Positions 520-24,100 of a stretch of DNA of 64,000 nucleotides are shown one piece after another. A program made the position numbers and the translations under genes. Source of the stretch: Mytilus trossulus (taxonomy: Eukaryota). Positions within the stretch are counted from its first letter, which is position 1; every line of letters begins with the position of its first letter. The stretch is from NCBI RefSeq assembly GCF_036588685.1, contig NC_086376.1:81137630-81201629 (forward strand), in the 5' to 3' direction. The notes beneath the pieces were generated by a model, which was not told the origin of the DNA, did no database searches, and worked only from the letters and a program-made list of their open reading frames with translations.

Positions 520-590
520 ATGTCAATACTATTAAACTGCAGCTTGGCCTTAACTACAAAATAAAAAAAAGTAGCAAACATGTTCATTCT
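520..590 (-). pseudogene. Degenerate copy of the gene B signal-peptide exon (MNMFAT...)
   Basis: Minus strand ttttag|a ATG AAC ATG TTT GCT matches gene B ttctag|g ATG AAC ATG CTT GCC. The downstream part aligns to FCACGPVAGY only with a frameshift and TAA stops. Flanking intron (~600-655) resembles 13620-13655. Confidence 0.55.
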
Positions 591-1009
591 AAAATATAAA
601 AAATACAGATAGTTATTAATCGGTTAAATTTCAAATTAAAGAAGTTATGTTGAAAAGAAAAGCTAAAGATACCAATAAAACATTCAGGATTATAACCTCG
701 TATAAAAAAGAAGTAAAACATACCATTCCCTCATAAGGTTTCCAAACTTCTCAACGAATTTATCTAAGGTAAAGAAAAATGAACACCCTCGCTCTCTCCC
801 TAAACAGTAAGATAACTTTCAGTGAAATTCAACGTCTTTAAAAATTTACATCCTTACAATTTGTTTAACAGTTCTCTTGTCAGCTTGACGTGTTCTCCTT
901 GAAATTCTTACATTTATTCATTACAACAGTGTTGAAAACGTTAAAACAGTTAATTAAAATGTGCGTCCACTGCGAGTATGAACAAACTTAAATTTTACAA
1001 ATATCGGAA

Positions 1010-1320
1010 GTAAAAGGGGATTTTCAAAAATCTGCAACTTTTGCAATTCTAAATTTAATAGTAAACAAATTGTTTAATTTACACTCTGACATAAACTGTA
1101 ATGATTGTTTCCTGTTGCAAAACACAAGTTGTACATCTTAAGACATCTCTTAATTAACAAGGTTTGTAAATTTCCGCATGACTGTAACTTCCATACAGGT
1201 AGTGGGCTAACATAACCTAGAAAAAGTAACAACACGTCTGGTTGAAAGGTATAAATAAGAAGCTGGAATGTCTTTGTTAGAAAAACTCCAAGGACAGTCC
1301 ATTACCACGCAAATATCCAG
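1010..1320 (+). promoter_or_regulatory. Promoter (TATAAATA 1250-1257) and non-coding exon 1 (ends 1320, donor GTATGT) of gene A1
   Basis: TATA box about 30 nt before a short exon ending CAG|GTATGT. The block is clearly paralogous to 14665-14960. Confidence 0.7.
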
Positions 1321-1547
1321 GTATGTATAAATGACAGTGTAATTTAGTCAAATATGAATAAAATTTACAATTCTATTCAGTTTCCAAAAAAATATATGTT
1401 CATTTTTGTGATACTGGTCTTAATAAGTATTTGTTCGTTTATATTTCAATTATATCAAAAACATGCATAAATTGTTATTTGGATGGAGAGTTGTCTCATT
1501 GGCACTCATACCACATGATCTTCCTATATCTATATAATCTTTTTTAA

Positions 1548-2036
1548 AGGAGTAGGTCCGGTAAGAGCCCTTTTTGGCCCCAAAATATAGCAGTTTTACA
1601 AAATTGTTAAAATGTAAACTTTTAGTTATTTATTGGATAGTAGAATGGTTCTGCTACATAAATATTGGCTGTTTTTGGCAATACAATGCACATATATTGA
1701 GTACTAGCACCATGTGTTCATCTAAAATATTAAAATGGAAGTTGTATTTGATGATAATACATAACATATATAAAGATTGAGGATGAACACGGATGCGGCC
1801 ACTTTCATTTTTGTCAAAAACCATCTGAAAAGTGACATTTGTTCGCATATTTGGTAGATTTTTCATATTTAAGCTTGAATCGGATCGTTTTTTAAGACTA
1901 AATGAGTTTAAATCTTTAACAAAAAATAATTGAAACAAATGAAATAGACACTTAAGTGTTTAAAAAGTGTTCAAAATCTTTCGTCAGATAAAACTGAAAT
2001 TTGAGGCCAAAATCGGTTCTTACCGGACCTACTCTT
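1548..2036. mobile_element. Non-autonomous TIR element (Kolobok-like MITE) in intron 1 of gene A1
   Basis: TIRs AGGAGTAGGTCCGGTAAGA / TCTTACCGGACCTACTCTT, flanked by TTAA / TTGA. A second copy lies at 15357-15924. Confidence 0.75.
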
Positions 2037-2521
2037 TTGACAAAATTGTCAAAATAACTGAGTTTCAGAAAAAGATATTCACATATAAAATCAATCATTT
2101 GTGGCGGTTTAACTTGTGGGTTTTCAAAGCTTTGTAAGAGGGCATAATACGTTTATGTAACTCAGGTTCAGTATACATGATGTATCAGTCCATCCATATA
2201 CCGGTTTTAGATAATGTGGATCCTTAGTATATAATTGGTAGGTCTGAATATCAAATTGATTTGTTGAAAAGTTTAAGGTCCTCAATGTCATTATTTGACA
2301 AATTCAACGCGAAACAATTATCTCAGGCTCGGGAATCTTAACATCCCTTTTGTTTGAGGGTTCTTTTTTTGACATTTCTTTACCAATATTACCTATTTAT
2401 GGACATTTTACCAGCACTTTATCACTGCTTTTAATCTAAGATTGTCAAACATACCACATCTTCATATATTATTTTTTTTATCGATAATCAATATAAATGA
2501 AATCTTAATTATAATTTCAGA

Positions 2522-3894
2522 ATGCAGTTCATAGTTGCTTTGTCTGTTTTGATTGTTTGTGTTTCTGCACAACAAGGTAAGAAACATAATAAGAAACAGA
2601 GTTAATCATAGTCGCCGACTTGGTTAAATAATCCGTTCTTGATCCTACCCCTTCACTTATGTTTTGGCGTGTGAATTATTTATAGAAACAAGTACTTTAT
2701 TTTATCAATATAGTTTTATTTTAAATGGAAACAATTCTTGTTTGTTTCAATATCCATCAGATATCTTTCGCTTATCGTTTATTACATGTTAAGTAAAAAA
2801 CGCGACATTTTCAAAAACGAAATATCGCTTTTTCCGAATTTTCAAAAAGATCTGAAAATTCATGCAATGTTAAAAAAAACTTGCATATTCAACTTAAAAA
2901 AGTATTTTTTTTTTCCTTAACAGATTACAGAAGAAAAAGATCAGGATATGGTAAGAGACAACTAAACCGTCCATTGAGACAAAGGTGTTTCATGTAAAAC
3001 AAACAAAATTATATTATAATGCTATCAAAGTACGGCAGCAGAAATGAAGATCGCAAAAGTCCTTTATAGCGACGTCATAAAAAATAAGATCGAATACTTT
3101 TGTAACATTTAATGTCAGTGACAGATTTGAAAACATTAAAACTTTCATTTAGTAAAAATGGAATAAAGATCAAATAAAAGAGTTTAAGTTTTGGGTTGAT
3201 AATAATCAGATCTAACAGAAACTTATACAAAAAACTTTTAAACTTCCGTCTACAAATTACTTTATCATTGGAATCATTTCAAATATTCAAATACTTTAAA
3301 CCTGTAGGTGGAAGTGGTGGCGATGGATCTGGTCACACCGGAGGTGGAGTCTCTGGTGGAATTGGAGGAGGAGGTTCTGGTGGACTAGGAGGAGGATCGT
3401 CTGGTAGTTTAAGTGGTAACCTTGGAGGTGGTGTTCATGGCGGAGTTTCTAGTGGACATGGAGGAGGATCGTCCGGTAGTTTAAGTGGTAACCTTGAAGG
3501 TGGTGTTGATGGCGGAGTTTCAAGTGGACATGGAGGAGGATCGTCCGGCAGTTTAAGTGGTAACCTTGGAGGTGGTGTTGATGGCGGAGTTTCTAGTGGA
3601 CATGGAGGAGAATCGTCCGGCAGTTTAAGTGGTAACCTTGGAGGTGGTGTTGATGGCGGAGTTTCAAGTGGACATGGAGGAGGATCGTCCGGCAGTTTGA
3701 GTGGTAACCTTGGAGGTGGTGTTCATGGCGGAGTTTCTGGTGGAGGTGGAGGAAGTGTAAGTGGTGGACTAAAAGGAGGAGTTTCCGGAGGTGTAAGTGG
3801 TAATCAAGGTGGAAGTTCACATGGTGCTCTAGGCGGTGGTGGAGGAAGAGTTGGTGGTGGAAAATATGGCGGCAAATCTGGAAAATGGCATTAG
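2522..3894 (+). CDS. Secreted Gly/Ser-rich structural protein A1 (222 aa); coding exons 2522-2576, 2924-2950, 3308-3894
   Basis: Canonical GT-AG phase-1 junctions give MQFIVALSVLIVCVSA-QQDYRRKR|SGYGGSGG... The protein has a signal peptide, an RRKR furin site, five 72-bp (24-aa) GGGSSGSLSGNLGGGV[HD]GGVSSGH repeats and the C-terminus GGGKYGGKSGKWH. AATAAA at 3942-3947. Confidence 0.9.
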
Positions 3895-6180
3895 GAGACA
3901 TAAGCAGGATATTTGATGAGAAAAATAATGTTTTACTTTTCAATAAACTGCTTCATTTACTTTAAGTATTCGATATCTTTCGTTTCCTATAAAATCTTGC
4001 AACTCTGCAGTTTAATGTCGATAGTTATTATTGCTTTCATACAGCCTAAAAAATAGAATGATATATTCTTCAGTATAATTATTTTAATTTGGCTTGTTTG
4101 TCGCATAAAAGTCCATTACTATCTTATTAATCATTAAGAACTTAAAACATGCATTTTTAAAGTCATCCGATGCTTCAAGTAAATTAAAATGAGTCGGGTT
4201 TTCCTGGCCCATAAGGAATAATGATAGCATTTTAAGGATTTTCACCACTTTCTAACACTGCCAAAAAATCTTCATCATCAGTTAACTGAAGTACTTTCAT
4301 TATACAATTCAGAAATGAATTTAAATACGTATCATGACCGTTTAATTTTTTTGATATCTTTAAAAAGCTAAAGCCAGTAGTGCTTTTATCATGCAGTGAA
4401 TACAAAATTCTCAAAAATTCTCAAAAATTAATTTTCACCTGCATGTAAAATTATTTCATATTCTACAGCTGATTTTTTTTATGTCCAATCACACTTCAGA
4501 TGTATTGACCTAAGTAGGTTAAACAAAAGAAAAACATAAATCCTGGAATTCAAACACTACCATACTACCTGCATACCGGTGTTCAAAAGTTATAAATCTT
4601 TTGAGAAAAAAACAAAATCGAGGTACAAACCAAAACCCAAAGAAACACATTTAAAAGAGGAAAACAATAGGAACACCAGGAACACCAAAGTGCAACAAAA
4701 GCAAATACCAAAGCCTATAAAAACGAACTATTTGATAACTACTGCCATATTCCTGACTTGTTACAGGACTTTAATGAAAAGAAAGTTGGTTGAATCTGGT
4801 TTAATGGCTGAAAAGCTCCCGCTTTGTGCAAATGTAAAAACATAACGACAAAATATTAAGTGGCATAGATACAACACAAATATACGCAAGGACATTCATA
4901 ATAGAGAAACGCACAATCAAGTAATACAAAAGTCGACACAACATGCAAACTGCAACAACGAACATATAATTTTACTATAAAACAAGCTTATATAGACCTA
5001 ATTATTGAATTCTTTAGTGTACATATCTTTTAAGTGAATAGTTTTTTTTTCTGCATTTTCGAATCTATATCATACTTAACCTTAAATAACAAATACTACA
5101 TATACTCATATAAATCACTGCAAACTGTGTATAGTAACAATGAATCATCTTTTATCGGTGAACCTGGGAAAGGCAAACGGAGATTTCTTCTTCTTTTTTC
5201 TGTAATTTCCTTCTGTGGTTAGGAGCACTTATCACTTACTTGATTATTCGCAATGGGTTCATATTACACGGTCAAAAATAGCCAAAACCACTGTTATTTT
5301 ACAGTATTAACCGCAATTGTATATTTAAAAGACGATGGGCTTATATTACACGGACACACTTTAATTACCAAATTCATCCAGTTCACAAATCCAATGACAT
5401 TTCGGATGAAAAAAATTGCACTCAAACAAAATTCGAAGCTATAAAATGTAACTTCCGAGATTGAAGAGACCAAATTATTGACTCCAATAAGCATTATCAA
5501 TAAAAAATGAGTTTACACAACATTCGTTACATTGTCGTGAAATCTTAAATTCAGAACCCACATTTCGTAAACATGAAACATGACACAAACAAGGCAAAAT
5601 CAGCAACGCACAAATTAAAATTGATATTTGGCAACTTTTTTCATCCGATCGTCCATTCGCCTTGTGTTGACGAAACGCGCGTCTAGCGTATTGAATTTTA
5701 AACCTGACACCTTTGGTTAGCTATTATTCGTGTGTTTCTCTGTCCTATATGTTCTCCCATTTAGTGGTATTGTAGTCCTATCATGTAATTTTGTCATATT
5801 AATTGCCCTACAAGCGGGAGGTTGGCATGCTATAAAGCCAGGTGCAACCCACTATATTTTTTTTTTTATTAAAATGCCATGTACCAAGTCAGCGAATGGC
5901 CATTGTAATATTATAGTTCGTTTCTGTGTGTGTTACATTTTAATATTGTGTTACATTTTAATATTGTGTTTCAGTTGTATCGTAGTTCTCCTCTTATATT
6001 TAATAGGTTTCGCTCAGTTTAAGGTTGCAGCCCGGATTTGTTTTTTCTTAATCGAATTTCAAACAGCTGTATACTACTGTTGTCTTTATGTTTCTGTCAT
6101 TTCGAAGGATGGGTTACGCGGAATTAAAGTGTCACGAACAGTTTCAACACCCTTTCCATTCTTAATAAATAAATTGGTTT

Positions 6181-6980
6181 GCTAATGTTAAAATTGGTGG
6201 TAAAGACACACTAATATGTTTATTGACACTGGATCAGCAGTGACTCTGATTTTAAACGAAAATTAAGATTAAATAAAATGAAACAAATCATAATTGATTA
6301 AGATTACTTCAACATAAATTAATACTGACAATGAACCATTTACAGTATTGGGAAAACTAAACTTTTAATCACGCTAGGGTTGAAATATTCACAAATTATG
6401 TGACTGACAGGACTAGGTGGTATGTCGGGTATTTACGGCTTTGTAGTTTTTGTCTAGAAGTTCATTTGTAATAGACACAAACAGAGGAGGTTACGCTCTC
6501 CCTAGGTTGATATCCAACTACTTGCAATCTATTGGAAATTGCTGATACTGAAAATAACTCACTTTTACTCACAGTCAAACGGTAAAATAGAGTACTATAA
6601 AAGAACCTTTAAATGTTGTCAATGCAAAATAACAAAAATATCGAACTCCGAGGAAAATTCAAAATGGAAAGTCCCTAATCTAATATCAAAATCAAAATCT
6701 CAAACACATCAAACGAATGGAAAACAACGGTCATATTCCTGACTTGGAACAGGCATTTTTTTGTAGAAATTGTGAAAATTAAGAAGATTGAGATATCTAT
6801 CTCCCTTGTGTTACCATGTCCTTCAGACCATGTAACCACAAAAGTACGATATGCTCTTGAACGTATTAATGATAGAACACGAAATATTATTTCCAATTGT
6901 TATTGTAACCGAGTCAAACCTCTATAAAAATATAAGCTACTATTCAAGTTTATACATGGGAAGGATGCGCGACTCCATGC
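6181..6980 (+). mobile_element. Highly decayed Ty3/Gypsy LTR-retrotransposon relic (protease and integrase fragments)
   Basis: IDTGSAVTLI retropepsin motif at ~6222, YSQSNGKIE (integrase HPQSNG-like) at ~6565 and FIHGKDARL (YGRDARLP-like) at ~6950. Frameshifted and interrupted by another repeat. Confidence 0.5.
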
Positions 6981-7160
6981 AAAGAATTTTTGATGTAGTT
7001 CATGAAAATTTATAGTCATATATGTATATTCCATAGACAGAAAATATACTATGAATGGAAACAAAGGGGAAAAAAATACTGTTTATTCCAGAAGAAGGGT
7101 GCATGGGTATGATCTAAGGATATATTACAGTTATCAAAAGTACCAGGATTATAATTTAAT

Positions 7161-7204
7161 ACGCCAGACGCGCGTTTCGTCTACATAAGACTCATCAGTG
7201 ACGC
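7161..7204 (-). ncRNA. Type I minimal hammerhead ribozyme (intact core)
   Basis: Minus strand reads GCGUCA CUGAUGA GUCU-UAUGU-AGAC GAAA CGCGCG UC UGGCGU: conserved CUGAUGA/GAAA core, GUC cleavage triplet and palindromic short helix III. Confidence 0.85.
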
Positions 7205-7515
7205 TCAGATCAAAATAGTTTAAAAGCCAAACAAATACAAAGTTGAAGAGCATTGAGGACCCAAAATTCAAAAAAGTTGTACCAAATACGGCTAAGGAAA
7301 TCTACTCCTGGGGAAAGAAAATCCTTAGCTTTTCGAAAAATTCAAAGTTTTGTAAACAGAAAATTTATAAAAATGACCATATAATTGATATTCATGTCAA
7401 CACCGAAGTGCTGACTACTGGGCTGGTGATACCCTCGGGGACGAAACGTCCACCAGCAGTGGCATCGACCCAGTGGTGTTAACAGTTATCAAAAGTACCA
7501 GGATTATAATTTAAT

Positions 7516-7559
7516 ACGCCAGACGCGCGTTTCGTCTACATAAGATTCATCAGTGACGC
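7516..7559 (-). ncRNA. Second hammerhead copy with a G>A change at the base of helix II (probably impaired)
   Basis: Reads CUGAUGA-AUCU...AGAC-GAAA instead of CUGAUGA-GUCU...AGAC-GAAA. Confidence 0.7.
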
Positions 7560-7931
7560 TCAGATCAATGACCCGAGTCCCCGGTATACGTACATGGACA
7601 ATTGTTTTGCCTATGGTATTAACATACTTGCGATACTGCGAGTAACTATTGATTAATCTGGATCAATATCAAAACGTCGAATATGTCTATGTGTACAAAT
7701 TTAATATGAACTAGAACACACCCGTGATATCGGCGGTCTGTGACTGAATTAAAGAATATAACTATGCGTAAGGATGGAAATAAAACTATTTGAAGAGGCG
7801 ATTGTGATGAACAAAATATGGAAAACTATTGAGTTCTTTTAAACCACAGGGGTGATGCAGTGTCGCATTAATGGGTGCAAGGGTGAACAATTTGGACCAG
7901 CGCCTTCCCTTTCATGAATGTGACCTGCCGA

Positions 7932-8664
7932 ATAACAAACTGACAACGCCATGGCTAAAAATGAAAAAGACAAACAGACAAACAATAGTACACATGACAC
8001 AACATAGAAAACTAAAGAATAAACAACACGAACCCCACCAAAAACTAGGGGTGATCTCAGGTGCTTCGGAAGGGTAAGCAGATCCTGTTCCACATGTGGC
8101 ACCCGTCGTGTTGCTTATGTGATATCAAATCCGGTAAATAGTGTAATTCGGTAGGTCGCATTCATGAAAGGGAAGGGGATTGTAGCTACGACGTACGGAA
8201 CATATTCGATATCATTTGTGAAACGGTTATTCCATAACGATCAACCAACTCGTGGTGGAAATAGCTTCCTTGTGAGCAGCAACCCTCTATCAAGAAAATC
8301 ATGCATGATAGAAAATGCAAGCACGGGAATATCGTATCAATTGGGAGATATACACCTCGTATGCAGGTGCTGCTGGAATGTTGCTACTTAGAAATGGAAA
8401 GTTCACAATTGGAAAGCTGAAATCATCTCTTTTGTCGTAAAGTTTTGTTTTCAACCGATCCTCATTGTCAATTTCTAGATGTAAGTCAAGATATGAAGCC
8501 GACTTAACTGTATCTGAAGTATCCTTTATCTCTAGTTCGATGCGTTCCACATAGTCACCAAATTTTGAACTATTTAGTGAAAGAACATCATCTATATAGC
8601 GGAAAGCAGAGTTAAAGGAGATTGCTAACTTCTTATCTTTCTCCGAAAGATTTGGGTTTACCAT
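7932..8664 (-). mobile_element. Penelope-like element fragment (reverse transcriptase C-terminal part plus 3' region)
   Basis: ORF 8299-8664 encodes FRYIDDVL...SYLDL...LYDKRDDFSFPIVNFPFLSSNIPAAPAY..YISQLIRYSRAC, typical of PLE RT palm/thumb. The 3' part recurs at 12389-12620 and 20060-20620. Confidence 0.8.
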
Positions 8665-10133
8665 AAATATGCAAATATTTCTAATCAGATTTGGGACATT
8701 ATATATCCATTGGATTATTTGGTTAATTGGTGTGCACGGAACATTTGCACCAAATTCATCAAGTAGACTTTTAAAATCGTCTTTTTCATCTTTTAATGCT
8801 AAAACTCTTTAAAGACTGGATTTTCGCAGATGAATAATCTCCTTTAAAGCAGCACCCCGATGGTGCCTTTATCTCCTTTGCCTAACTAGAAATTAGTATC
8901 AGGACACGACTCTTTCATGGGAAGAACATTTGATAACCTGTGGGAAGGATGATTTTAAAAATAAATATGCTGGCCTTGTAAGAGCTGAATATAAATAACC
9001 TTTTATAAGACATGATGTAAATGAACCCAAAATCCGGAAACAATTATGTACAAAAGTGAGGTAAAAAAGACGCGTGTAAGAACAAAATCAATGTCAATCC
9101 GCAAAAAAAATCCTCCAGCCCAAACCTTCCTGAATATAAAATGGTCGTTCTCTCATGCCCTAAGATCAACTATGTTTACATGAATTATCTCTTTGAAATG
9201 TAATTTATATTACACATTGCCTTTGAGCACTCTCACACATACATTTCTCATCACATTATGAAATGTATATCAAAGGTGTATAATATTTGAAAGGTTTGAA
9301 AGTTTCGATAATTATAGCCGATCAAATGACTTATGCCCCTTAAAAATTGAAGAAAAAAATTCAAAAAGATTTTTTAGGAAAAAATCAAAAACAATCAAAA
9401 CCATATTGATTAAGTAATTGCTGTTGGACTAACAAAATGAGTGTATCAGCGTTGGACTTTGGAACGCAGCTCTTCTTTTTTTATTATTAGAATTCAGCTT
9501 CGTTTTTACATGATCAGTAATGTTACTTTGCTACAATCATCCAGCATAAAGTTTGGGACTGAAGTTCATTCTGGTTTTTTTTTGTATAGCATTCGATTCA
9601 GCCTACTTTATCAATTTCTTCTTTCTTTAGTGGTGTTTTAAACATGCTTCGTCTAAAACTTAACACAGCTGTTTTCCAGGCTACAGAAAAATCCCTAGGG
9701 TTTCAGGAGCCCATAACTTCTATGGCCACATGAATTATCGTTGATACGTTCATTTCGATGATTTCATTAATTACAAAATTCTGAATTTTTCGAAATACTA
9801 AAAAAAATCTTCACTAGGAATACATAAATTTAGCTTCCGTAGCAAAACCTTTCGTAATTTGGGGTTTTCAATACTAGATTATTCTTTATACTAAATTTGA
9901 AGTATTTAACCTTTTCATGCGAGCGTCACTGGTTGGTCTTATTTATACATGAAAAGTTTTAACCCTGGTACCTATAATGTGAGTTTGTTACTCACTGCGG
10001 CAACAAACTCTTAGTCAGTTTTTGTTCATCTAGAGCAACTAGAACATCTGCTACATGTTACGATTTATATATATAGCTACTTGTACATAAAAACGCAAAA
10101 TGTTTTTGAGTAGTTTATTATTTTTTATTTGAA

Positions 10134-13100
10134 TTACGCATTGTCTTTATATTTTCCATTCCATTTCCCAGAACTTCCACCCCATTTTCCTCCACCTCCT
10201 GCCTTTGCCCCACCTGATCCACTACCACCAATACTGCTGCTAAAACTGGAACTAAAACTTGAGCCACTGCTATTAGAACTTGAGCTTGACTTTGCATTTG
10301 ACTTTGACGAACTGGAACCTGTTGCAAAAGCGCTACTATGTGCATTTGATCCACCACCCATCACAGCTCCTCCAGAAGATGGGACACCTCCACTCGAGGA
10401 AATGCCTGTTTTAACGTTAATGCCAGACCCTGTACCGCCAGACTGTGCTAAACTCGACCCAAATGAACTACCACCATCTAAACTGCTAGAACTAGAAAAT
10501 GCCGAAGTACCACCACCTTGGACGCTACCACCAGCCATACCCATGTTTCCTCCAGAAACACCAGATTTTATCTTAATCCCAATATCTTCTCCAACCCGCC
10601 CTCTGATAGACGCAGATTTACTGGAACTACTACCTAACCCAGTGGATCCAGCACCAGTTACACTTCCACCTACTCCACCGCCGATGTTACCAGACATACC
10701 AGAATCATGTGTAGCCTGTAATCCTCCTTGACTGGCACCAGCAGAACCAGAATGTGACAAACTTGATAAAATACCAGAAGAACCACCGACACTGCCACCA
10801 ATCTGCGTACCTCCATTACCAGCGGCCCCGTCGATTCCACCAGAACCACCAACACTGCTGTCAATCTGAGCACCTCCGTTACCAGACACACCCGCATCAG
10901 CGGCACCATTGCTTCCACCAGAACCTCCAGTTTGTATACGCATTCTTATTCCACTTACGCCACTCGTACCACTGCTTGTCTGTGAGGATTTAACATTAAC
11001 ACCTACAGCCCTGTTATTGTTATCTGCACCAGAACTAGAACCAGAAATGCCAATTTTTGTTTGACCACCACTTCCTCCAGATATTCCTATTCTTGTTTCA
11101 CCACCACTTCCACCAGAAATTCCCAATCTTGTTTCACCATTATTGCCGCCAGAAATAGCCATTATTGTTTCACCACCATTTCCATTATCATCATCGTTAC
11201 CATTACCACCAACTGAACCATTTTGATCGTTATCACTACCAGATCTAGAGATACTTCCAGCTAAGTTTCCACTAACTGAGCCAGATGTTCCTCCACCTAT
11301 ACCACTACTGCCACTCATCCCCACTCTGTTTACACCTGAATGGCCAGCATTGACTTTCATACCAATGCCTCCACCGATATTTCCTCCAAATGAGCCACTG
11401 CTACCAACACTGACTTTTGATATACCACCAGTTGATGTACCTACACTAGCACCAGAAATACCACCTGCACCGCCTACACCTATACTACCACTACTTCCAA
11501 TTCCGCCACCAAATCCAGTTCCCATTCCAACGCGTCCTTTAAGTCCAACACTACCACCTTGAGAAAATCCACTCTTCATTTTTATACCAATTCCGCTAGA
11601 TATCGAGTTTGATAACCCACCGCCAGAGCCGATTCCAATTCCACCACTGACACCTGAACTAGACATCGAGTGTGATGAACCACCGCCAGAGCTGAATCCA
11701 ACTCCACCACCTACATGTGAGCTTGACATCGAGCTTGATGAGCCACCGCCAGAGCCGAATCCAATTCCTCCGCTTACACCTGAGCTTGAAATCGAGTTTA
11801 AGCCACTGTCAGTGCTTAATCCAACTCCACCGCCTACACCTAAGCCTGCTCCGCTGCCTATACCAATGTTTGCTGATCCACCACTCGATGAACTGAAGCT
11901 GGATTTGAATTTGCTACTGAAGGATCCACCAATTTTGCCACCAACTCCGCCACCAACTCCACCGCCCAATCCAATGCCGTGGTTTGCATTACCTCCACAG
12001 TCATCATCGCAAGCATGTCTTTTACCAGTAGCTGTAAAACAATTAAGAAAATCAGATGATTTTATCATGACTTTACCGACGGCATTATATATTTTTTCTT
12101 TATGCGAGTTTTATCGTTATCATAATGCAAGTTGTCTTATGTCAATCAGGACCTAATATAACCCCCCCAAAAGAGATATTTTTTTTTAAATCAATTTATT
12201 CCTGAAGGAATATTCTACAAAAATAAAAACATAAGGTACAGCAAATCATGCATGAAAGTTAACAAATTCACATAGTATATGGTTTCATTTCAATGTATCC
12301 GATTGAACGGTGGCAAAGTTTTTTATGCTCCATCTAGGGGTATTATGTCTTTTCGGTCTGTGCGTCTGTTAGCCATACGTCAGTCTTAAGCAACACGACG
12401 GGTGTCACATGTGGAGCAGGATCTGCTTACCCTTCTGGAGCACATGAGATCACCTCTAGTTTTTGGTGGGGTTCGTGTTACTTATTCTTTAGTTTGCTAT
12501 GTTGTGTTATGTGCACTATTGTTTGTCTATTTGTCCTTTTCATTTTTAGCCATGGCGTTGTCAGTTTATTGTCGATTTATGAGTTTGAATGTCCCTCTGG
12601 TATCTTTCGTCCCTCTTTTAAATCCAATCAATAATACACAAATCAAAATAGAAGTTAGACTTGATACATGCACAAAGACTAACAATACATGGTCCTTGTA
12701 GCTTGACTTGGAACATGCACAATTAGATGTAGCCAGATATAGAAGTATTATCTTCTTGTCGTAGTCACAATTCATACTCCCTTTCGATGTTTGACCCGTT
12801 TGTTTATACTTCTAGAAGAACAGAAATTGTTTATTGTTCGAAGGCCACCTTGTTTCCTCTTGTTTGTTCGGAGTTAGAGTTATTAAAAATTTAGTTTTAT
12901 TTGGGTTTCTTTACATATGTTCATAGTGTGGCCTGTCCTTGAAGTTTACACTTGGAATAATCCTTTTGTATCTTCTTGTTTTTCCTCGTATTGATGAAGC
13001 ACTTGAAAATCTATAGCATGTTTTTGTGGTCATAAGATTAAACCAAAGTGACCATTCTCCTGTTCCAAGTTGTCATCAATGTTTTTGGTTTTGTTTTATC

Positions 13101-13601
13101 ATTTTTGAAAGTTTTGATATCTATTATCACAATCACAATCTGACTGGTACCTAAATGGGACAGCTATTATCGATTGCTTACGTAAATATTTCATAACTAT
13201 GCAAGTGAAGGGGTCTGAAGTTCTGGTGGAGAAGATGGAAAAACAAGTTGTTAAAAGGAAGTTTTGGCTAGTACATAAGTATATAGAGCACATTCTATAG
13301 TCGGCATTTCTGTATAAATCGACCATGCATTTTCCCATAGGAACTACGTTTACGGTTAAAACTGTACCACTTTCATTATGAAGCTTTGAAAAAAATCATA
13401 TCCATCCCCCCCCCAATCTTTCTACTCCCTCCTTATGGTAACCATTTTGAATTCTTTTTTAAGGGTCTACATCTTTTTGGCATCTTTTTGGCACAGATAA
13501 TTAGGTGCAAATGATAACGTATTACATATATACCTACCATAACCAGCAACTGGGCCACAGGCACAAAAAAGTAAAACACTTAAAGCGGCAAGCATGTTCA
13601 T
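10134..13601 (-). CDS. Secreted Gly/Ser-rich structural protein B (653 aa); coding exons 13601-13538 and 12031-10134; probable non-coding exon 1 ending at 14486
   Basis: ttctag|gATG gives MNMLAALSVLLFCACGPVAGY-G|gtag, joined in phase 1 to tttacag|CT, giving ATGKR|HACDDDCGG... The body is Gly/Ser-rich with an Asn/Asp patch and ends GGGGKWGGSSGKWNGKYKDNA. AATAAA follows the stop. Confidence 0.9.
12389..12620 (+). mobile_element. Penelope-like 3' fragment in the intron of gene B
   Basis: Near-identical to the reverse complement of 7932-8115 (CATGTGGAGCAGGATCTGCTTACCCTTC...). Confidence 0.7.
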
Positions 13602-14485
13602 CCTAGAAAAAAAAAGTGTTTCATGAGTTAAATTTTAAGATAAGAAGGTTTATGTTTCATCTAATCTCTCCCTCGTTCAGACAGAAAACTAACATACAAC
13701 TTAACATCAATATTTACAAGAGCTAGATGTATTTTTCTTTTTAATAGGCCAGATTTATTTTCTTAATTCTAAATCTTATAGATTTTTTCCCCCATTTTCT
13801 ACTGATCAGTATTTTTGTTATTGTTTATAAGTTCAAATAAAAATACAGTAGATCTAAAACTAAGATGAATTCTGGAAATTTTTATTGGTAAGAAAAGCTT
13901 TCAAACTTCTTTCAATATGTTCTCCTTCTGAAATAGTTTTGAGTCTACTGAATAAGACCGTTATCTGGCCAGCTCTTGTGTTTTCCACCAGAAGTGTATA
14001 GTTATTGAAAAGTTGTATAGTCGTTTGGTAAATCAAGCTGCAATAAGACATCGATCATTCATCTGTTTACCCGAGACTTTTAATCATTTTTTTTTATAAA
14101 AATATGTTGTGTTTTTATCAAAGCTGAATTCATTTTTTCTACGTCTTAAGTTACGCTCGAAACTATTTTTCTCTATATTAAGAATCAAACAATTTATTAA
14201 AAAAAAAACATGTCCCTCACATAAAAAGATGGATAATCGGTGCCTTGTGGTATTCTGTGATTAATTTACTGTTTGTTTAATTTCCACTTACAAATAATCA
14301 ATAAATCATTGAAATTTAGAAAATCCTTTTTTACAACTGTAGATTATAACATGTAGTCTTCTGTTCTTCATGGATTTTTAAAATAAGAACCATATATCAC
14401 TGATTGACAATATTTAACAAAAAGTTTGAAATACTTGCGTATAAAAATGATTTTTTTTCTTAAAATTTGTAAATCCTAAACTTAC

Positions 14486-14960
14486 CTTAATATTAGAAAG
14501 TGTTGACAATGCGCTGCTACTACTCTTGTTTTTAAAGTGAAAACTACTGAAAAGGCGTTTTGTTATTCTATGTAATTAATTATGAGTTAAATGCAGTAGT
14601 ATTGTACGTGTATGTTTCCAATTCGTCTAGGGTAGCAAAAACCTACATTTAAAGTGTGTCTGAACGAAAAGGGGATTTTTGACAGTCTGCATCTTTTACA
14701 ATTGAAATTAATAGTAAACAAATTTTAACGTAAAATGTAATAATTGTTTCCTGTTGCAAAACACAAATTGTACATCTTACAACATCTTACTAATTACCTA
14801 TGTTTGTTAATTTCCGCATGACCGTAAGTTCTACACTTGTAGTGGGAGCACGATACATGCAGAAAAAATAATAACAAGTCTGGTAAAAAGGTATAAAACC
14901 AGAAGCTGCAACATATTTGTCAGATAAGCTTCAAGGACAGCCCATCAGAAAAATATTCAG
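14486..14960. promoter_or_regulatory. Compact bidirectional promoter between gene B (-) and gene A2 (+)
   Basis: Minus-strand exon-1 donor AAG|GTAAG at 14486/14485 with a TTTAAAAA TATA-like box near 14530. Plus-strand TATAAAA at 14892-14898 and exon-1 donor CAG|GTATGT at 14960/14961. Confidence 0.65.
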
Positions 14961-15356
14961 GTATGTATACAAGACGGTCTCTAAAAAGTTAAATTTGATT
15001 TAAATCTTCAAACTTTATTCAGTTTCAAAAACAAAAACGTATTTCGTATAACCGTTCTAAGTATGCATGTTTCGATAATTTTCACAGATATTAAAATAAA
15101 AAAAAAAGTTTTCTAACTTTGGGCAAAATAGTCAGATTAATTTCATCTAAGAATATCTAAGAATCTGATTTTTTTAAATACCTAAACAATTATTTTTAAT
15201 ATCTATTTAAGAATTTTATTTTGATGTTTCCCAATCTATGTAATATGGCATAATATTTTTAGATGATTCGTGCCCTTTGTACATACTTTTACAGTTCAGA
15301 AATATTTTAAGAAAATTCCGGTCCTTTGCATATTTTATGGAGGCTTCATCCAGCAA

Positions 15357-15924
15357 AGGAGTAGGTCCAGTAAGACCCTTTTTTGGCCCCAAAATATTGC
15401 AGTTTTACAAAATTGTTAAAATATAAACTTTTAGTTATTTATTGGACAGTAGAATGCTTCTGCTACATAAATATGGGTTGTTTTTGATAACACAAGGCAC
15501 ACATATCGGGTACTAGCACCATTAAGTCATGCTAAATTACTGAAATCTTCAAAATTTTAGCATTTTAGTTAAATTTTAGATGGTTTCCGTGTAAAACGAA
15601 AGTGGCCGCATTCGTGTTCATCCTTAATACTGAAATGTAAGTTGTATTTGATGATAATACATAACATATATAAAGGTTGAGGATGAACACGGATGCGGCC
15701 ACTTTCGTTTTTGACAAAAACCATCTGAAAAGTGACATTTTTCGGCATATTTGGTAGATTTTTCATATTTGAGCTTGAAACGGATCGTTTTCAATGACTA
15801 AATCAGTTAAAATCTTTCACATAAACTAATTGAATCAAATGAAACAGACACTTAAGTGTTTAAAAAGTGGTCAAAATCTTTCGTCAGATGAACCTAAAAT
15901 TTGAGGCCAAAATCGGTCCTTACC
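15357..15924. mobile_element. Second copy of the 1548-2036 MITE, in intron 1 of gene A2 (right TIR truncated)
   Basis: Co-linear high identity with 1548-2036. It also carries an internal segment of roughly 80 bp that is missing from the first copy. Confidence 0.8.
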
Positions 15925-16160
15925 TTTATTTGTCGAAAATACAACATTTTTCTGGTGAAGGAACGCAAATGTTGTAGAGAATTTAACAATATGCATTTGT
16001 ATGCATCAATTTTGAAAATAGTAAATGCAGTATACACATGTTACTTTAAACAATAACATACTTTAAAAAAAGAATAATTCAAAAATTTAAGAAAAGTCTA
16101 AATATGTTACAATTGATGTAAACTGACGTAAACCTTATCACCACATCTCCTTATTTTCAT

Positions 16161-16332
16161 GCAGATAATCTTTATAAACGAAGGATAACTTATTATTACA
16201 GAATGCAGTTTATAATTGCAGATAATCTTTATAAACGAAGGATAACTTATTATTACAGAATGCAGTTTATAAATTGCAGATAATCTTTATAAACGAAGGA
16301 TAACTTATTATTACAGAATGCAGTTTATAATT
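16161..16332 (+). repeat. Three tandem 57/58-bp copies of the exon-2 splice acceptor plus start codon of gene A2
   Basis: GCAGATAATCTTTATAAACGAAGGATAACTTATTATTACAG|AATGCAGTTTATAATT x3, with ATGs at 16203, 16260 and 16318. Confidence 0.9.
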
Positions 16333-19275
16333 GCCTTGTGTGTTTTGGTTGCTTGTGTTTCTGCACAACAAGAGACATTGAAAAAGAGGTCTGTTGGCGA
16401 CTACAACCCAGACTACAGGCAAGGTAAGGAAATATTACTAGCAGAAGCATAGTTAATGTTGAAGGCCGTACGCTGACCTATAGTTGTTAATTTGTCTGTC
16501 ATTCTCTTATGGAGAGTTGTCTCCCTGGCAATCATACCAAATCTTTTTTTATAACTAATGTGTTATTGTCAAAGTTATCATGAAAGCAGCAATATTAATG
16601 CTTATCCTTTAACTCTTGTATTCCACTTACTTTTACGTGCATTAGTAATTCATTTGTGAAAAATAAGTTAAAACAACAAATTTTAAGAAAATATGTATCC
16701 CCATAATGTTGAAGGCCGTACGGTGACCTATAGTTGTTAATTTCTCTGTCATTTTGGTCTCTTGTGGAGAGTTGTCTCATTGGCAATCATACACATCTTT
16801 TTTTTTTAAACTAATGTGTTATTGTCAAAGTTATCATGAAAGATATGTAAGTGATATTCCTTTAACTCACGTGTTTGACTTGTTGGTTATTTTTACATTC
16901 AATTAGTAATTAATTTGTTAAACAAATCAGTTAAAAACATCAAATTTTAAGATAAAAAGTATCTTCATTGTAGAAAGACTCAAACATCTGAAAATTTCAA
17001 GTATTAACCTACAAACTGTTTCTTTTTCACAGATTACAGGAGAAAGAGATCGGGAGGTCACAAACACGGTAAGAGATACCAATAAGAATTATAGAAAAAA
17101 AATCTGATTTGTTCAATGTAGAAGAAACAAAATAATTTTTAGGTAAATGCAATCAAAACCTTATGGGACTTGATATCAAAATCTTCCAAGGCTGACCACT
17201 ACCTTTATGATACACAAAATATAGTGCATTGAGTGCATTGATCATAATATTCTATACATCCTATCCATGAACATTTCCGGAAATTTGTCGATGTAATTTA
17301 TGCTTAGATATTCAAGGCACAAAATGATGTTACACTTGTCAAGAAAATGACATAACTTTTGCAAGGTGCTTACAAGCACTTTGATTGAATGCTTTATGAT
17401 ATAAGTCGAGATCACTGAAGTTTGGGTTGACTACCATTTGAAATTACATTCACGTCATATCAGTCTTATTGCTCCTTTTGGCAAGGTCACAACACATAAG
17501 ATCTAAAACTTTGTACATGTTAAATAACAGCGATAGTTTGGAAAACATTAAAACAAAATCAATCAGTAAAAATTGAATAAAAAAATGAATAAAAGTGTTT
17601 ATGTTTAGAGATGATAGTGATCACAACCAGCTTTCGTAATTTTCCTAACAAATGCTAATACAAAAAATCCAAAATTGTAGGTCATGGCGGTGGTTCTGGA
17701 TCTGGTCACATCGGAGGTGGAGTTTCTGGTAGCCTTGGGGGCGGACTTAGTGGTAGCCTTGGAGGCGGACTTGGTGGTAGCCTTGGAGGCGGACTTGGTG
17801 GTAGCCTTGGAGGAGGACTTGGCGGTAGCCTTGGAGGAGGACTTGGTGGTAGCCTTGGAGGAGGACTTTCGGGGGGTTTAAGTAGCAATGTTGGAGGAGG
17901 AATTTCTAGTGGACTCGGAGGAGGACTTTCTGGAAGTCTTGGAGGAGGACTGTCCAGTGGACATGGAGGTGGACATGGAGGTGGTGTAAGTGGTGGACTT
18001 TCAAGTGGACTTGGAGGTAGTCTTGGTGGTGGACTTTCCGGTGGTTTAAGTGGCAAAGTTGGAGGTGGTGTTTCTGGAGGTCTTGGAGGTGGTATTTCTG
18101 GAGGACTTGGGGGAGGAATTTCTAGTGGCCTTGGAGGAGGACTTTCTGGTGGTCTTAGAGGAGGAATTTCTGGTGGCAACGCAGGTGGGCTGTCCAGTGG
18201 TTTAAGTGGCAAGGTTAGAGGAGGGGTTTCTAGTGGACTTGGAGGAAGACTTTCTGGTGGTCTTGGAGGAGGAATTTCAGGTGGACATAGAGGTGGTCTG
18301 TCCGGTGGTTTAAGTGGCAAGGTTGGAGGAGGGGTTTCTGGTGGACTTGGTGGAGGAATTTCTGGTGGTCTTGGAGGTGGAATTTCTAGTGGACTTGGAG
18401 AAGGTCTTTCTGGTGGTCTAGGTGGAAGAATTTCTGGAGGACATGGAGGTGGGTTGTCCGGTGGTGTAAGTGGTGGACTTTCCGGTGGAACTGGTGGATC
18501 ATTAGGTGGTAAGATTAAAGGAAGCCTTAGTGGATCAACTGGTGGTGGATTAAGTGGCGGGCTAGGAGGCGGTGTAAGAGGAAATATTGGAGGTGGACTT
18601 GGAGGTGGTCTGTCCGGTGGTGTAAGTGGTGGGCTTTTAGGTGGCCTAAGCGGAGGAACTGGTGGATCATTAGGTGGTAAGATTAAGGGAAGCCTTGGTG
18701 GGTCAACTGGTGGTGGATTAAGTGGCGGGCTAGGAGGCGGTGTAAGAGGAAATATTGGAGGTGGACTTGGAGGTGGTGTTAGTGGTGGACTTGGAGGTGG
18801 CCTTACCGGAGGAACTGGTGGATCTTTAGGGGGTAAGATTAAAGGAAGCCTTAGCGGATCGACTGGTGGTAGCTTAAGTGGTAATCTAGGCGGTGGTGTA
18901 AGTGGTGGACTAGGAGGAAATCTAGGCGGTGGTTTAAGTGGTGGGCTAGGTGGCAGTCTAGGTGGTGGAATCAGCGGTGGGCTAGGCGGTAGTCTAGGCG
19001 GTGGTGTTAGCGGCGGCCTAGGCGGCAGTCTAGGTGGTGGACTTGGAGGTAGTCTAGGTGGTGGACTTGGAGGTAGTCTAGGTGGTGGACTTGGAGGTAG
19101 TCTAGGTGGTGGACTTGGAGGTAGTCTTGGCGGTGGTTTATCTGGAAGCAGTGGTATCAAGATGAAAAGTAGCAGTAGCAGCAGTAGTAGTATATCTTCT
19201 GGAGGAAGAATTGGTGGTGGAAAATATGGAGGAAGTTCTGGAAAATGGGGTGGAAGTTCCGGAAAATGGGACTAA
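16318..19275 (+). CDS. Secreted Gly/Ser/Leu-rich structural protein A2 (578 aa), paralog of A1; coding exons 16318-16423, 17033-17068, 17681-19275
   Basis: MQFIIALCVLVACVSA-QQETLKKR|SVGDYNPDYRQDYRRKR|SGGHKHGHGG..., with the same exon phases as A1. Contains GGLGGSLG / GG[IVL]SGG repeats and ends GGGKYGGSSGKWGGSSGKWD. Confidence 0.9.
16454..16965 (+). repeat. About 250-bp tandem duplication containing a SINE-like 3' fragment (intron 2 of A2)
   Basis: TAATGTTGAAGGCCGTACG... starts at ~16454 and ~16704. The GGAGAGTTGTCTCATTGGCAATCATACC tail also occurs at ~1485 and ~58760. Confidence 0.7.
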
Positions 19276-21187: not shown

Positions 21188-24100
21188 ATGGGAGGGTGTC
21201 TAGGATCCCGGAGACACGGCGATAACTCATCAGGCGAGTCTTCTGATGCTGCAGGTAGTGGGAGTTGGGTGGGGGTTAATGAAATAAAACTAAAATCACC
21301 CCGGTCATTTCCTGTGATCAGCTGATCTGCAGAGGTGCTTTGTGTATCCATATATATATAGCATTTGTAGACAGTTGTTTTATTTAGATTAAAATGAATT
21401 AAGTTTTAATCTCGATTGACTTGTAATTTTAATAACACTATCCTTATTTTTTCCTATATTTTTCTTAAATTTTGATAAAAACAAATATTGTGTATATAAA
21501 TCTAGAAATACTTCCTTTCCATAAATAAATGAACACTTGACAACATTGTTTGAAACGACGGGCTGCATTGGGTTTTACAATTGTCACAAACTGCAACTTT
21601 TCAACTGGTGACAAAATTCGACTAGTACATTTGTACAAATGTACAATAATATTTGTGGTACCAAGGATTTGTATAGATATATCTAACTATACAAATCCTT
21701 GATTATACCAACATGTTATCATGTGAACATTTTAAATTTTTGACCTTAAGTAATAAAATTGGTCTATAAGGGCATTTACAGGTTCATGTGGGGAATGTTA
21801 GCATCTGCTGGTAATCTTGTATACAGGTAAAAAGATTAACATAGCATTAACTAGGATTTGTATAGTAAGACTTACATGTAGTGATGTACTCTTCTTCTTC
21901 ATCTTTCAGTACAGAGTCGGACTCTTCTTGAGTGTATAAATGACTCCTGCTCTTTAAATCATGAGGTCTTCCCTCCTCACTTAATAAAAACTATTTACAA
22001 GAAAATTATTTACAAATAAAACTATGTACATCTGGGGTCATAGGAGTTCTAGGTGTGTAAAGCTCCTGTCAAGGCCTCTGGCAGGATGGTAAGGCTGGCC
22101 TTGAACTCTTCTAGTGTAGCTGCTGTTGTGGCTTTTTCCGGTAGAGTGTTCCATTCCCTGGTTGATTTTGGGAAGAAGGAGTACCTGTATTGATCTTTTA
22201 GAGTGCGCTGTTGGTGTATGCGGTGGCCTCCTCTGGTTCTTGAATCTCCGGGTTTGTAATAATTAGAGGGGTCAATATCCACCAATCTATTGCGGATCTT
22301 GTATGCCATGGTGAGTCGGTCTTTGCAGCGGCGATCTTTAAGAGGGTCCCATTTTAGTCTATCCATTAAGGTGCTGACACAACCTGGGGATACGTCTTGG
22401 TATTCATTGTACACGAACTTAGCTGCCCTTCTCTGTACTTGTTCTAGGTCTTTTTCAAGGTTATGTTGATAAGGGTCCCATACAGTGGAGGCATATTCCA
22501 GGGTTGGTCTGACCATGGTGATGCTGGCGTTGGCTTTGACTTCGGGTTTACACTGTCCTAGGTTCCTTCTCAGAAAGCCTAGTGTCCTTGATGCTTTTCC
22601 TACTGTCTGGTACTATACAAATCCTTGTCATAAATGAGTGATAATTGTAATTATCAATTTATTATTATTTTAAAAAGTTGATCATGACTGAAATCCCATG
22701 GGAACATGATAGTGCCCCTCCTTTTGCCAAACGGTTCCTTTAATCATATGAAGCTGACTACAAAATGTACATACAGAAGCTTCTAAGGATGAATGAAAAG
22801 AAGTTAGCATTATTCTTAAACTATAAGAAGATGATGTCCTGTCACTTAAAATAATTTGAAAGTTATAATTTGGACAACTGTTTTTATGAGCAGAGGAAGC
22901 ATTAACTGTTAAACTTGTCTGTAAGTCCGTCCATACATCCCAAAGTAGGTTTCCATGCTCTAACTTTAGTTTAATCCAACTAAATGTTACTAAACTTATA
23001 CAAAATGCTTATAACCAGAAAACACAGATCAATTTGGAATTTTGGTGGCGTCAGATTTACTGTTGTTGAATTATGCCCCTTAACCAAATGAAAGAAATGC
23101 TGAATTTTTTGTTTCACGTGCTTCACACGGGTTATGTTCTTCTCATATATGTTATGATGGTATGATACTAAACCCCTAACAGGAAGGATTGTGCCTGATG
23201 TTCATATGATGAAATCATAATCTTTCAGTCAGTTTAATTGAAGTCTGGAGCTGGCATGTCAGTTAACTGCTAGTAGTCTGTTGTTATTTATGTATTATTG
23301 TCATTTTGTTTATTTTCTTTGGTTACATCTTCTGACATCAGACTCGGACTTCTTTTGAACTGAATTTTAATGTGCGAATTGTTATGCGTTTACTTTTCTA
23401 CATTGGTTAGAGGTATTGGGGAGGGTTGAGATCTCACAAACATGTTTAACCCCGCCGCATTTTTGCGCCTGTCCCAAGTCAGGAGCCTCTGACCTTTGTT
23501 AGTCTTGTATTATTTTAATTTTAGTTTCTTGTGTACAATTTGGAAATTAGTATGGCGTTCATTATCACTGAATTAGTATATATATTTGTTTAGGGGCCAG
23601 CTGAAGGACGCCTCCGTGTGCGGGAATTTCTCGCTACATTGAAGACCTGTTGGTGACCTTCTGCTGTTGTTTTTTTATTTGGTCGAGTTGTTGTCTCTTT
23701 GACACATTCCCCATTTCCATTCTCAATTTTATTTTAACTTAAGTTTTCCTCAACCAAATGTTATTAAACTTATACACAATGATTACTACATGTATATATT
23801 GTACCTCAAAATACACAGATTCAGTTTGATTTTGATGGTGTCACTTCAACTGCTCTAGTGTTATGCTACTTTACAAATGGAAAAATAGGAATTTTAAATC
23901 TGTTCTAAATAAATCAATGACGTAATTGCTAAAATTATTTTTTAAGATTGGAGTTATCTTCCTTTGTCCATAATTGTAGTTGATTCAACATCAAATATGG
24001 ACAAAGAAAGATAAATCCATTTTAACAATTACATTAACTACAACCATTGCTTTAATATACAATGCAATATTCAAATGAATAAATTAAAACAATCTTTACC

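What the first reader, a model, noticed from the sequence alone, without database searches (positions are those of the whole stretch)
520..19275. Duplicated head-to-head cassette of secreted Gly-rich protein genes sharing a ~400-bp bidirectional promoter
Gene B (-) and gene A2 (+) start back to back at 14486-14960. The same promoter block is conserved upstream of A1 (1010-1320: AAAAGGGGATTTT, TAATAGTAAACAAAT, ATTGTTTCCTGTTGCAAAACACAA.TTGTACATCTTA, TTTCCGCATGAC). That copy also keeps relics of a B-type partner: an exon-1 donor at ~907-911 and a signal exon at 520-590. The duplicated unit is therefore B<- ->A. This suggests co-expression of two components of one extracellular material (inference). 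GTAAACA (forkhead-type) and TTCC-core (ETS-type) motifs lie in the conserved blocks.
Basis: partly seen in the sequence, partly recalled or inferred. Interest (0 to 1): 0.7.

Follow-up and report, generated by a model that had tools for sequence, protein, structure and literature searches.

The report
Mussel head-to-head glycine-rich gene pair
Two related mussel genes for glycine-rich, likely secreted proteins start back to back about 350 bases apart and likely share control DNA, but in the three other copies of the block only one gene survives, so this is one working pair and not a repeated two-gene cassette.

Summary
The anatomy is real. B (-) and A2 (+) are spliced genes. RNA contigs confirm both first introns, and their 5' ends lie about 355 nt apart. 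The 300-nt block before A2 has four copies in the genome, each before an intact A gene. B exon-2 relics lie beside A1 (530-588) and beside an inverted copy 223 kb away; a weaker relic lies beside a copy 20 kb upstream. So the duplicated DNA included the 5' part of B. There is only one intact B, and no B body exon beside any other copy. The block carries an A-directed TATA box and stays conserved where B is dead, so its conservation shows use by A, not bidirectional use. New here: A and B are likely old paralogs, sharing exon layout, signal exon and the C-terminal KWGGSSGKW. The pair likely arose by inverted duplication, as a small analogue of silkmoth chorion A/B pairs. Co-expression, tissue and function are untested. 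A new member of a known kind; moderate interest.

The parts
10134..12031 (-). Gene B exon 3: Gly/Ser-rich body ending GGKWGGSSGKWNGKYKDNA
   Evidence: ORF; RNA contigs on it; exon 2-3 junction as loose end in 2 of 4 runs
13538..13602 (-). Gene B exon 2, signal-peptide-like (ATG at 13601)
   Evidence: joint 13602/14486 in 2 of 4 runs; model
14486..14560 (-). Gene B non-coding exon 1; 5' end at or beyond 14560; no TATAWA on this strand, Inr-like TCAGTA near 14550
14660..14915 (.). Conserved promoter block: invariant runs 14669-79 AAGGGGATTTT, 14710-23 AATAGTAAACAAAT, 14746-66 GTTTCCTGTTGCAAAACACAA, 14809-20 AATTTCCGCATG; A-directed TATA at 14892
14916..14960 (+). Gene A2 non-coding exon 1 (longer 5' form to 14842 in one run)
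16317..16423 (+). Gene A2 exon 2: signal peptide plus KKRS propiece; preceded by two extra 57-nt copies of the acceptor and start
17033..17068 (+). Gene A2 exon 3 (DYRRKRSGGHKH, convertase-type site)
   Evidence: joint in 3 of 4 runs
17681..19275 (+). Gene A2 exon 4: GGLGG/GGVSG repeats, IKMKS, ends GGKYGGSSGKWGGSSGKWD
530..588 (-). Frameshifted relic of B exon 2 beside A1
907..912 (-). Possible relic of B exon-1 donor (weak)
   Evidence: rank 88 of 12370; 4 of 12 flank letters
1004..1320 (+). Copy of the promoter block and A1 non-coding exon 1 (donor after 1320)
2521..2576 (+). Gene A1 exon 2, signal peptide
   Evidence: model only; no RNA joint listed
2924..2950 (+). Gene A1 exon 3 (DYRRKRSGY)
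   Evidence: model only
3308..3894 (+). Gene A1 exon 4, Gly-rich, ends GGKYGGKSGKWH

Best explanation
One intact head-to-head pair of spliced Gly/Ser-rich genes (B and A2), likely old paralogs from an inverted duplication, flanks a promoter block that is likely first of all the A promoter and whose central factor sites B likely shares, so the two likely secreted proteins would be made together. Shown: exon structure, splicing, spacing, four A copies, one B, decayed B scraps at the other copies, and motif-level conservation. Inferred history: A plus about 1.5 kb of upstream DNA was duplicated once, B's body was cut off or lost once in that copy, and that copy then duplicated twice more (A0, A1, A3). 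Inferred regulation: Fox-, ETS- and C/EBP-like sites 100-270 nt from both starts act on a TATA core toward A and a TATA-less core toward B. Inferred protein function: after signal and dibasic (RKR/KR) trimming, flexible Gly-rich chains with hydrophobic spacers assemble into an extracellular elastic or cuticle-like matrix, cross-linked through the shared Lys/Trp/Tyr C-terminal tag.
For: Splice joints and 5' extents. 4 A and 1 B in the genome. Relics score above all unrelated windows (72.5 and 59 vs 49.5 of 9276) and share a 1-nt insertion before the donor. The block is 75-87% identical in 6 of 6 pairs, while -500..-331 is at shuffle level. Invariant runs cluster (2 of 20000 permutations). TATA lies on the A strand in 4 of 4 copies and on the B strand in 0 of 4. 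A-B paralogy: signal exons match at 27-31 of 48 ATG-anchored letters, and no non-family 48-mer of 19169 reaches 29; codon shuffles reach the mean in 1 of 20000, region-preserving shuffles in 63 of 20000. A 23-nt C-terminal pattern occurs at only 3 places in the genome: A0, A2, B. A2 and B share 11 informative 5-mers against 1.9 shuffled, 0 of 2000.
Against: Nothing here shows that the block drives B: it stays conserved without B, and B's own proximal DNA is not conserved in A1 or A3 (ranks 5888 and 8423 of 9276). No start sites, strand or expression levels could be read from contigs. An A1/A2 intron block is 74.5% identical over 153 nt, as high as the promoter's 75%, so overall identity alone does not show selection. 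No named homolog, Pfam family or solved structure supports the structural role. Tyr is scarce (2-4 residues per protein), unlike Tyr/DOPA-tanned mussel proteins (recalled). Factor names for the motifs are recalled or regex-level only.
Confidence: 0.58

Rival explanations
1. Two independent promoters back to back: the conserved block serves A only, B uses its own 100-nt proximal region, and the closeness is a leftover of the inverted duplication.
For: Block conserved in 3 copies without a working B; conservation ends at about 14660; TATA only toward A.
Against: The invariant motifs lie about as close to B's 5' end (110-260 nt) as to A2's (95-250 nt). Most close divergent pairs in Drosophila are co-expressed (84.8%, PMC2670823, passage seen).
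Confidence: 0.27
2. One reading: a working two-gene cassette was duplicated as a unit and the block is conserved because it is bidirectional.
For: B exon-2 relics beside A1 and A3; an exon-1-like stretch beside A0 at the same spacing as in the intact pair (rank 3 of 9276).
Against: No trace of B's 1.9-kb body outside B and the A exons in 464 kb or in the genome search. Relics are frameshifted or stopped. The A1/A3 relic region has diverged as much as their intron (72.8% vs 74.8%). A breakpoint in B intron 2 explains everything without a second working pair.
Confidence: 0.08
3. The A proteins are cationic glycine-rich defence peptides released by convertase cleavage and driven by a kappaB-like site, not structural proteins.
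For: Signal peptide, RRKR site, net charge +2 to +25. GGGGATTTT is present in 4 of 4 copies and expected 0.01 times per 265 nt; its likeness to Rel/kappaB sites is recalled. Spliced B occurs in a run labelled invertebrate gut metatranscriptome.
Against: A2 and B are 578 and 653 aa with low charge density. No single-copy B-like partner is expected for such peptides (inference). The myticalin layout is not met. The motif's rarity is not independent across paralogs.
Confidence: 0.1

Closest known systems
Silkmoth chorion A/B gene pairs (PMC4639761 and PMC13409908, passages seen)
   Same: Divergent genes about 330 nt apart, for two branches of one superfamily of Gly-rich extracellular structural proteins; conserved shared promoter; pseudogenes among the copies.
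   Different: Bombyx has 44 annotated A/B pairs and a conserved stretch between two TATA boxes. Here 1 of 4 units is intact, TATA faces A only, and no chorion family match was found. An analogy, not homology.
Head-to-head gene pairs with starts under 1 kb apart (PMC2670823 passages; PMC7817982 start of abstract)
   Same: Orientation and spacing.
   Different: Typical pairs are TATA-less housekeeping genes and only 4.3% in Drosophila are tandem duplicates. This is a paralogous pair with a TATA box on one side.
Shematrins, KRMPs, MSI31 and MSI60 (PMC3896809 passages)
   Same: Bivalve secreted Gly-rich low-complexity proteins with basic or aromatic termini.
   Different: No GnY repeats, no RKKKY-type C-terminus, no N-terminal Lys/Trp domain, no poly-Ala. 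The basic Tyr motif (YRRKR) is N-terminal, and a KW tag is C-terminal.
Glycine-loop proteins such as loricrin and keratin tails (recalled, not tested)
   Same: Gly/Ser runs spaced by L, V, I; Lys-bearing ends.
   Different: Secreted, with convertase sites; no alignment-level homology (one search gave only weak low-complexity hits).

Membership tests
Head-to-head pair / bidirectional promoter | Adjacent genes on opposite strands, transcribed away from each other | tested here: met
   GT-AG joints on opposite strands
Head-to-head pair / bidirectional promoter | Starts less than 1 kb apart | tested here: met
   Spliced contigs reach 14560 and about 14916; contigs do not map true starts
Head-to-head pair / bidirectional promoter | Shared elements drive both directions | not testable with these tools
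   Needs a reporter; the conservation pattern fits A-only use equally well
Head-to-head pair / bidirectional promoter | Correlated expression | tested here: inconclusive
   Only contigs from runs chosen for holding the stretch
Chorion-type repeated A/B cassette | Several intact pairs | tested here: not met
   1 intact B for 4 A
Chorion-type repeated A/B cassette | Conserved region bounded by two TATA boxes | tested here: not met
   TATAWA on the A strand in 4 of 4 copies, on the B strand in 0 of 4
Chorion-type repeated A/B cassette | Partners descend from one ancestral gene | tested here: met
   Shared exon layout, signal exon and C-terminus; no tree or outgroup
Shematrin | GnY repeat domains | tested here: not met
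   0 GG+Y in 5 of 5 proteins; feature from PMC3896809
Shematrin | C-terminal RKKKY-type signature | tested here: not met
   C-termini listed
KRMP | Lys/Trp domain after the signal peptide plus Gly/Tyr domain | tested here: not met
   Sequences
Collagen / preCol | Long Gly-X-Y run | tested here: not met
   Longest run 3-8 triplets; no Pfam match for the A1, A2 and B body exons
Myticalin | Short cationic peptide, then dibasic site, then anionic extension | tested here: not met
   The dibasic site precedes the long Gly-rich part; layout from PMC12294457

The most novel reading that the evidence does not exclude
A2 and B are the two chains of an undescribed mussel glycine-loop elastomer, cross-linked through a shared KWGGSSGKW tag and made in fixed ratio from a chorion-like bidirectional promoter. 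The three B-less copies would then be a natural deletion series that separates direction-specific from shared elements.
Probability: 0.3. Interest if true: 0.62.

Novelty: new member of a known kind. Interest (0 to 1): 0.36.

Why it matters
Mussel load-bearing materials are models for bio-inspired polymers. This is a five-gene Gly-rich family with no named relative in the searches run here, and so a candidate for an uncharacterised mussel matrix. The compact promoter, with four invariant motifs and four natural versions, is a ready construct for a tissue-specific bivalve reporter and for testing how a paralogous divergent pair shares elements. The architecture itself is well known from chorion genes and head-to-head pairs in general, so the surprise is limited.

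Tried and rejected
Protein searches gave nothing usable. B body: none at E<=0.001 among 7983 scored candidates and none for residues 250-400 among 7988. A2 body: 14 weak low-complexity hits among 7987, rejected as compositional. A2 exon 2 against 1.84 billion representatives: 1 hit, an unnamed 49-aa gene call on a 1117-nt contig, 94% identical. Pfam: 0 families for 4 of 4 A/B pieces. PDB sequences: 0 for B. The ESM Atlas gave no answer. The first three searches covered only near-length proteins, and only single exons were queried, so annotated full-length records may have been missed.

Literature: searches listed no description of these proteins or of such a pair in a bivalve; the motif search listed only unrelated papers. 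Most subscription papers on mussel proteomes are not in the library, and no supplements were read, so prior description under another name is possible. A gill-specific glycine-rich secreted protein of Mytilisepta virgata (PMC5549309 passages) could not be compared because its sequence was not seen.

RNA hints not used as evidence: run X1 has almost no cover on the B body (0.3-0.9) beside some on A2; X12 shows A2 exon 1 without B exons; X5 and X19 show B exons without A2 exon 1; 655-1308 has no cover in 4 of 4 runs. Holes in contigs prove nothing. Low-depth contigs across the intergenic stretch (X3 14525-14960, X12 14698-14846) may be long 5' forms, pre-mRNA or DNA; X3 also covers B intron 1.

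The A0 exon-2 relic (score 43, below the 99.9th percentile of 44.5) and the exon-1 donor relics (ranks 88, 504 and 1032 of 12370) are not significant alone. Three look-ups of earlier findings returned nothing. No fold or complex was predicted: the chains are low-complexity and have no alignment.
Full report
Setting. The window is G000:C4:81137630-81201629 in a 1.30-Gb animal genome. The genome has 8 myticin matches over the Pfam cut-off, so it is a Mytilus-type mussel. I read 200 kb on each side. Positions outside 1-64000 are offsets in window coordinates.

Gene models. Five intact reading frames were built: A0 (ATG at -18620, 228 aa), A1 (222 aa), A2 (578 aa), A3 (ATG at +222306, minus strand, 154 aa) and B (653 aa). 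All have a hydrophobic N-terminus read by eye as a signal peptide, a dibasic site within the first 45 residues, 31-48% Gly, 13-24% Ser, at most 2 Pro, and a Lys/Trp/Tyr C-terminal tag. RNA contigs join A2 exons 1-2 and 2-3 at GT-AG in 3 of 4 runs. They join B exons 1-2 in 2 of 4 runs, where the loose end matches the start of exon 3. One of those runs is on record as RNA; the others are guessed RNA. Spliced contigs reach 14560 on the B side and about 14916 on the A2 side (14842 in one run), so the genes start about 355 nt apart. Contigs do not map true starts. No joint for A0, A1 or A3 was seen, so those are models only.

Copies. The promoter stretch has 4 matches in the genome and the A signal exon has 4 matches at the same places. 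B's exon 2 and the start of exon 3 match only themselves. These searches give lower bounds. Only five Gly-rich frames exist in the 464 kb read, and B's body exon hits only B and A exons.

B relics. B exon 2 scanned over 9276 windows scored 72.5 beside A3 and 59 beside A1, against 49.5 for the best unrelated window. Both relics lie head-to-head with their A gene and share a 1-nt insertion before the donor, and both are frameshifted or stopped. Beside A0, a stretch like B exon 1 is the top non-self hit (rank 3 of 9276, only 1.5 points above the next). It is followed by GTAAGT and, 0.87 kb on, by a weak exon-2-like stretch (score 43). The A1/A3 relic region is 72.8% identical, like their intron 1 at 74.8%, which fits neutral decay. 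Block identities (A1/A3 87, A0 to these 80-81, A2 to the others 75-76) suggest the order (A2,(A0,(A1,A3))). This is not a formal tree. One truncation or loss of B's body after the first duplication would then explain all three relics.

The block. In 50-nt steps, conservation against all three other copies runs from 14660 to the A exon-1 donor (z 7-18); at 14460-14659 z is below 3. Of 327 columns, 199 are invariant, with runs of 21, 14, 12 and 11; permutations reach the longest run in 62 of 20000 and the summed runs in 2 of 20000. In one related RNA contig, 0 of 13 listed differences within the block fall in the 65 motif letters of 256 (P=0.02). That is a single contig at depth 3.6, with 19 of its 23 differences listed. 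Against over-reading: an A1/A2 intron block is as similar (74.5%) as the whole promoter. Fox-type (GTAAACA), two ETS-type, one C/EBP-type and the GGGGATTTT motif occur at matching places in 4 of 4 copies, and TATA occurs on the A strand only. The factor names are recalled and single short motifs are common by chance. Because three of the four copies have no working B, the conservation is accounted for by A. The block still lies midway between the two starts, so shared use by B is likely but unshown.

A and B as paralogs. Both have a non-coding exon 1, an exon 2 with one letter before the ATG and a phase-1 end, and a Gly-rich last exon. Signal exons match without gaps at 27-31 of 48 letters (for controls). 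Exon-1 donor flanks match at 7-9 of 12 letters, against a mean of 3.8 for 2565 donor-like sites. A 23-nt C-terminal pattern occurs only in A0, A2 and B. A2 and B share IKMKS, GNIGG and KWGGS among 11 informative 5-mers. Local gene conversion could contribute to the C-terminal match.

Mechanism. Most likely an inverted duplication placed two copies of a secreted Gly-rich gene back to back, and they diverged. A kept a TATA core, B a TATA-less core, and both likely read the central sites. Later duplications multiplied A alone. The proteins are likely trimmed by a furin-type convertase and assembled into an elastic or cuticle-like matrix, with Gly loops for flexibility, short alternating hydrophobic/basic segments in B and A2 as junctions, and Lys/Trp/Tyr/His ends for cross-linking. 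All of this last part is inference from composition. Tissue is unknown; spliced B appears in a run labelled invertebrate gut metatranscriptome, which does not localise it.

Comparison. The closest working analogue is the silkmoth chorion A/B pair: head-to-head, 330 nt apart, a common promoter and a common superfamily (PMC4639761, 12 passages seen; PMC13409908, 7 passages). It fails membership on several intact pairs and on two TATA boxes. It is not a shematrin, KRMP, collagen or myticalin by the tested features. PMC12294457 states that no glycine-rich antimicrobial peptides are known from bivalves (passage), which makes the defence rival notable though unlikely. PMC7971044 (passages) mentions a non-collagen glycine-rich gene between two byssal collagen genes in Perna; no collagen frame was seen around this locus. 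No paper was read whole and no supplement was opened.

Verdict. New member of a known kind; interest 0.36.

Noticed in passing
window 36494-46334: 87-nt tandem array, 113 copies, 93% matches; the 29-codon unit gives open frames up to about 800 aa on both strands. Pfam hits have no passing stretch; likely a satellite.
   Followed up: partly
window 32149-33935 and 54583-57304: Large inverted repeat pair, arms up to 633 nt at 97%, built of 126-161-nt subrepeats and flanking about 21 kb that include the 87-nt array; possibly a foldback-type element.
   Followed up: no
window 24569-25960 +: Last exons of a ubiquitin-domain gene (Pfam UBD plus ubiquitin; UBTD1/2 by recall), the downstream neighbour of A2.
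   Followed up: yes
window 16160-16334: A2's acceptor and start codon are triplicated in a 57-nt tandem; the RNA joint uses the third copy, and the first two would stop after a few codons.
   Followed up: partly
window 1546-2024 and 15355-15924: The same dispersed repeat sits in intron 1 of both A1 and A2 at 87-91% identity, higher than the flanking homology; independent insertion or conversion.
   Followed up: no
window 14525-14960: Low-depth contigs cross the whole intergenic stretch in X3 and part of it in X12, where a form reaching 14842 is spliced to A2 exon 2; possible upstream A2 starts.
   Followed up: partly
window 22049-22612 -: 187-aa open frame resembling the end of a LINE reverse transcriptase by recall; no Pfam match.
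   Followed up: partly
G000:C4:81358700-81361800 (window offset +221079 to +224130): Fourth A copy, inverted and about 200 kb from A2, with the best-kept B exon-2 relic.
   Followed up: yes
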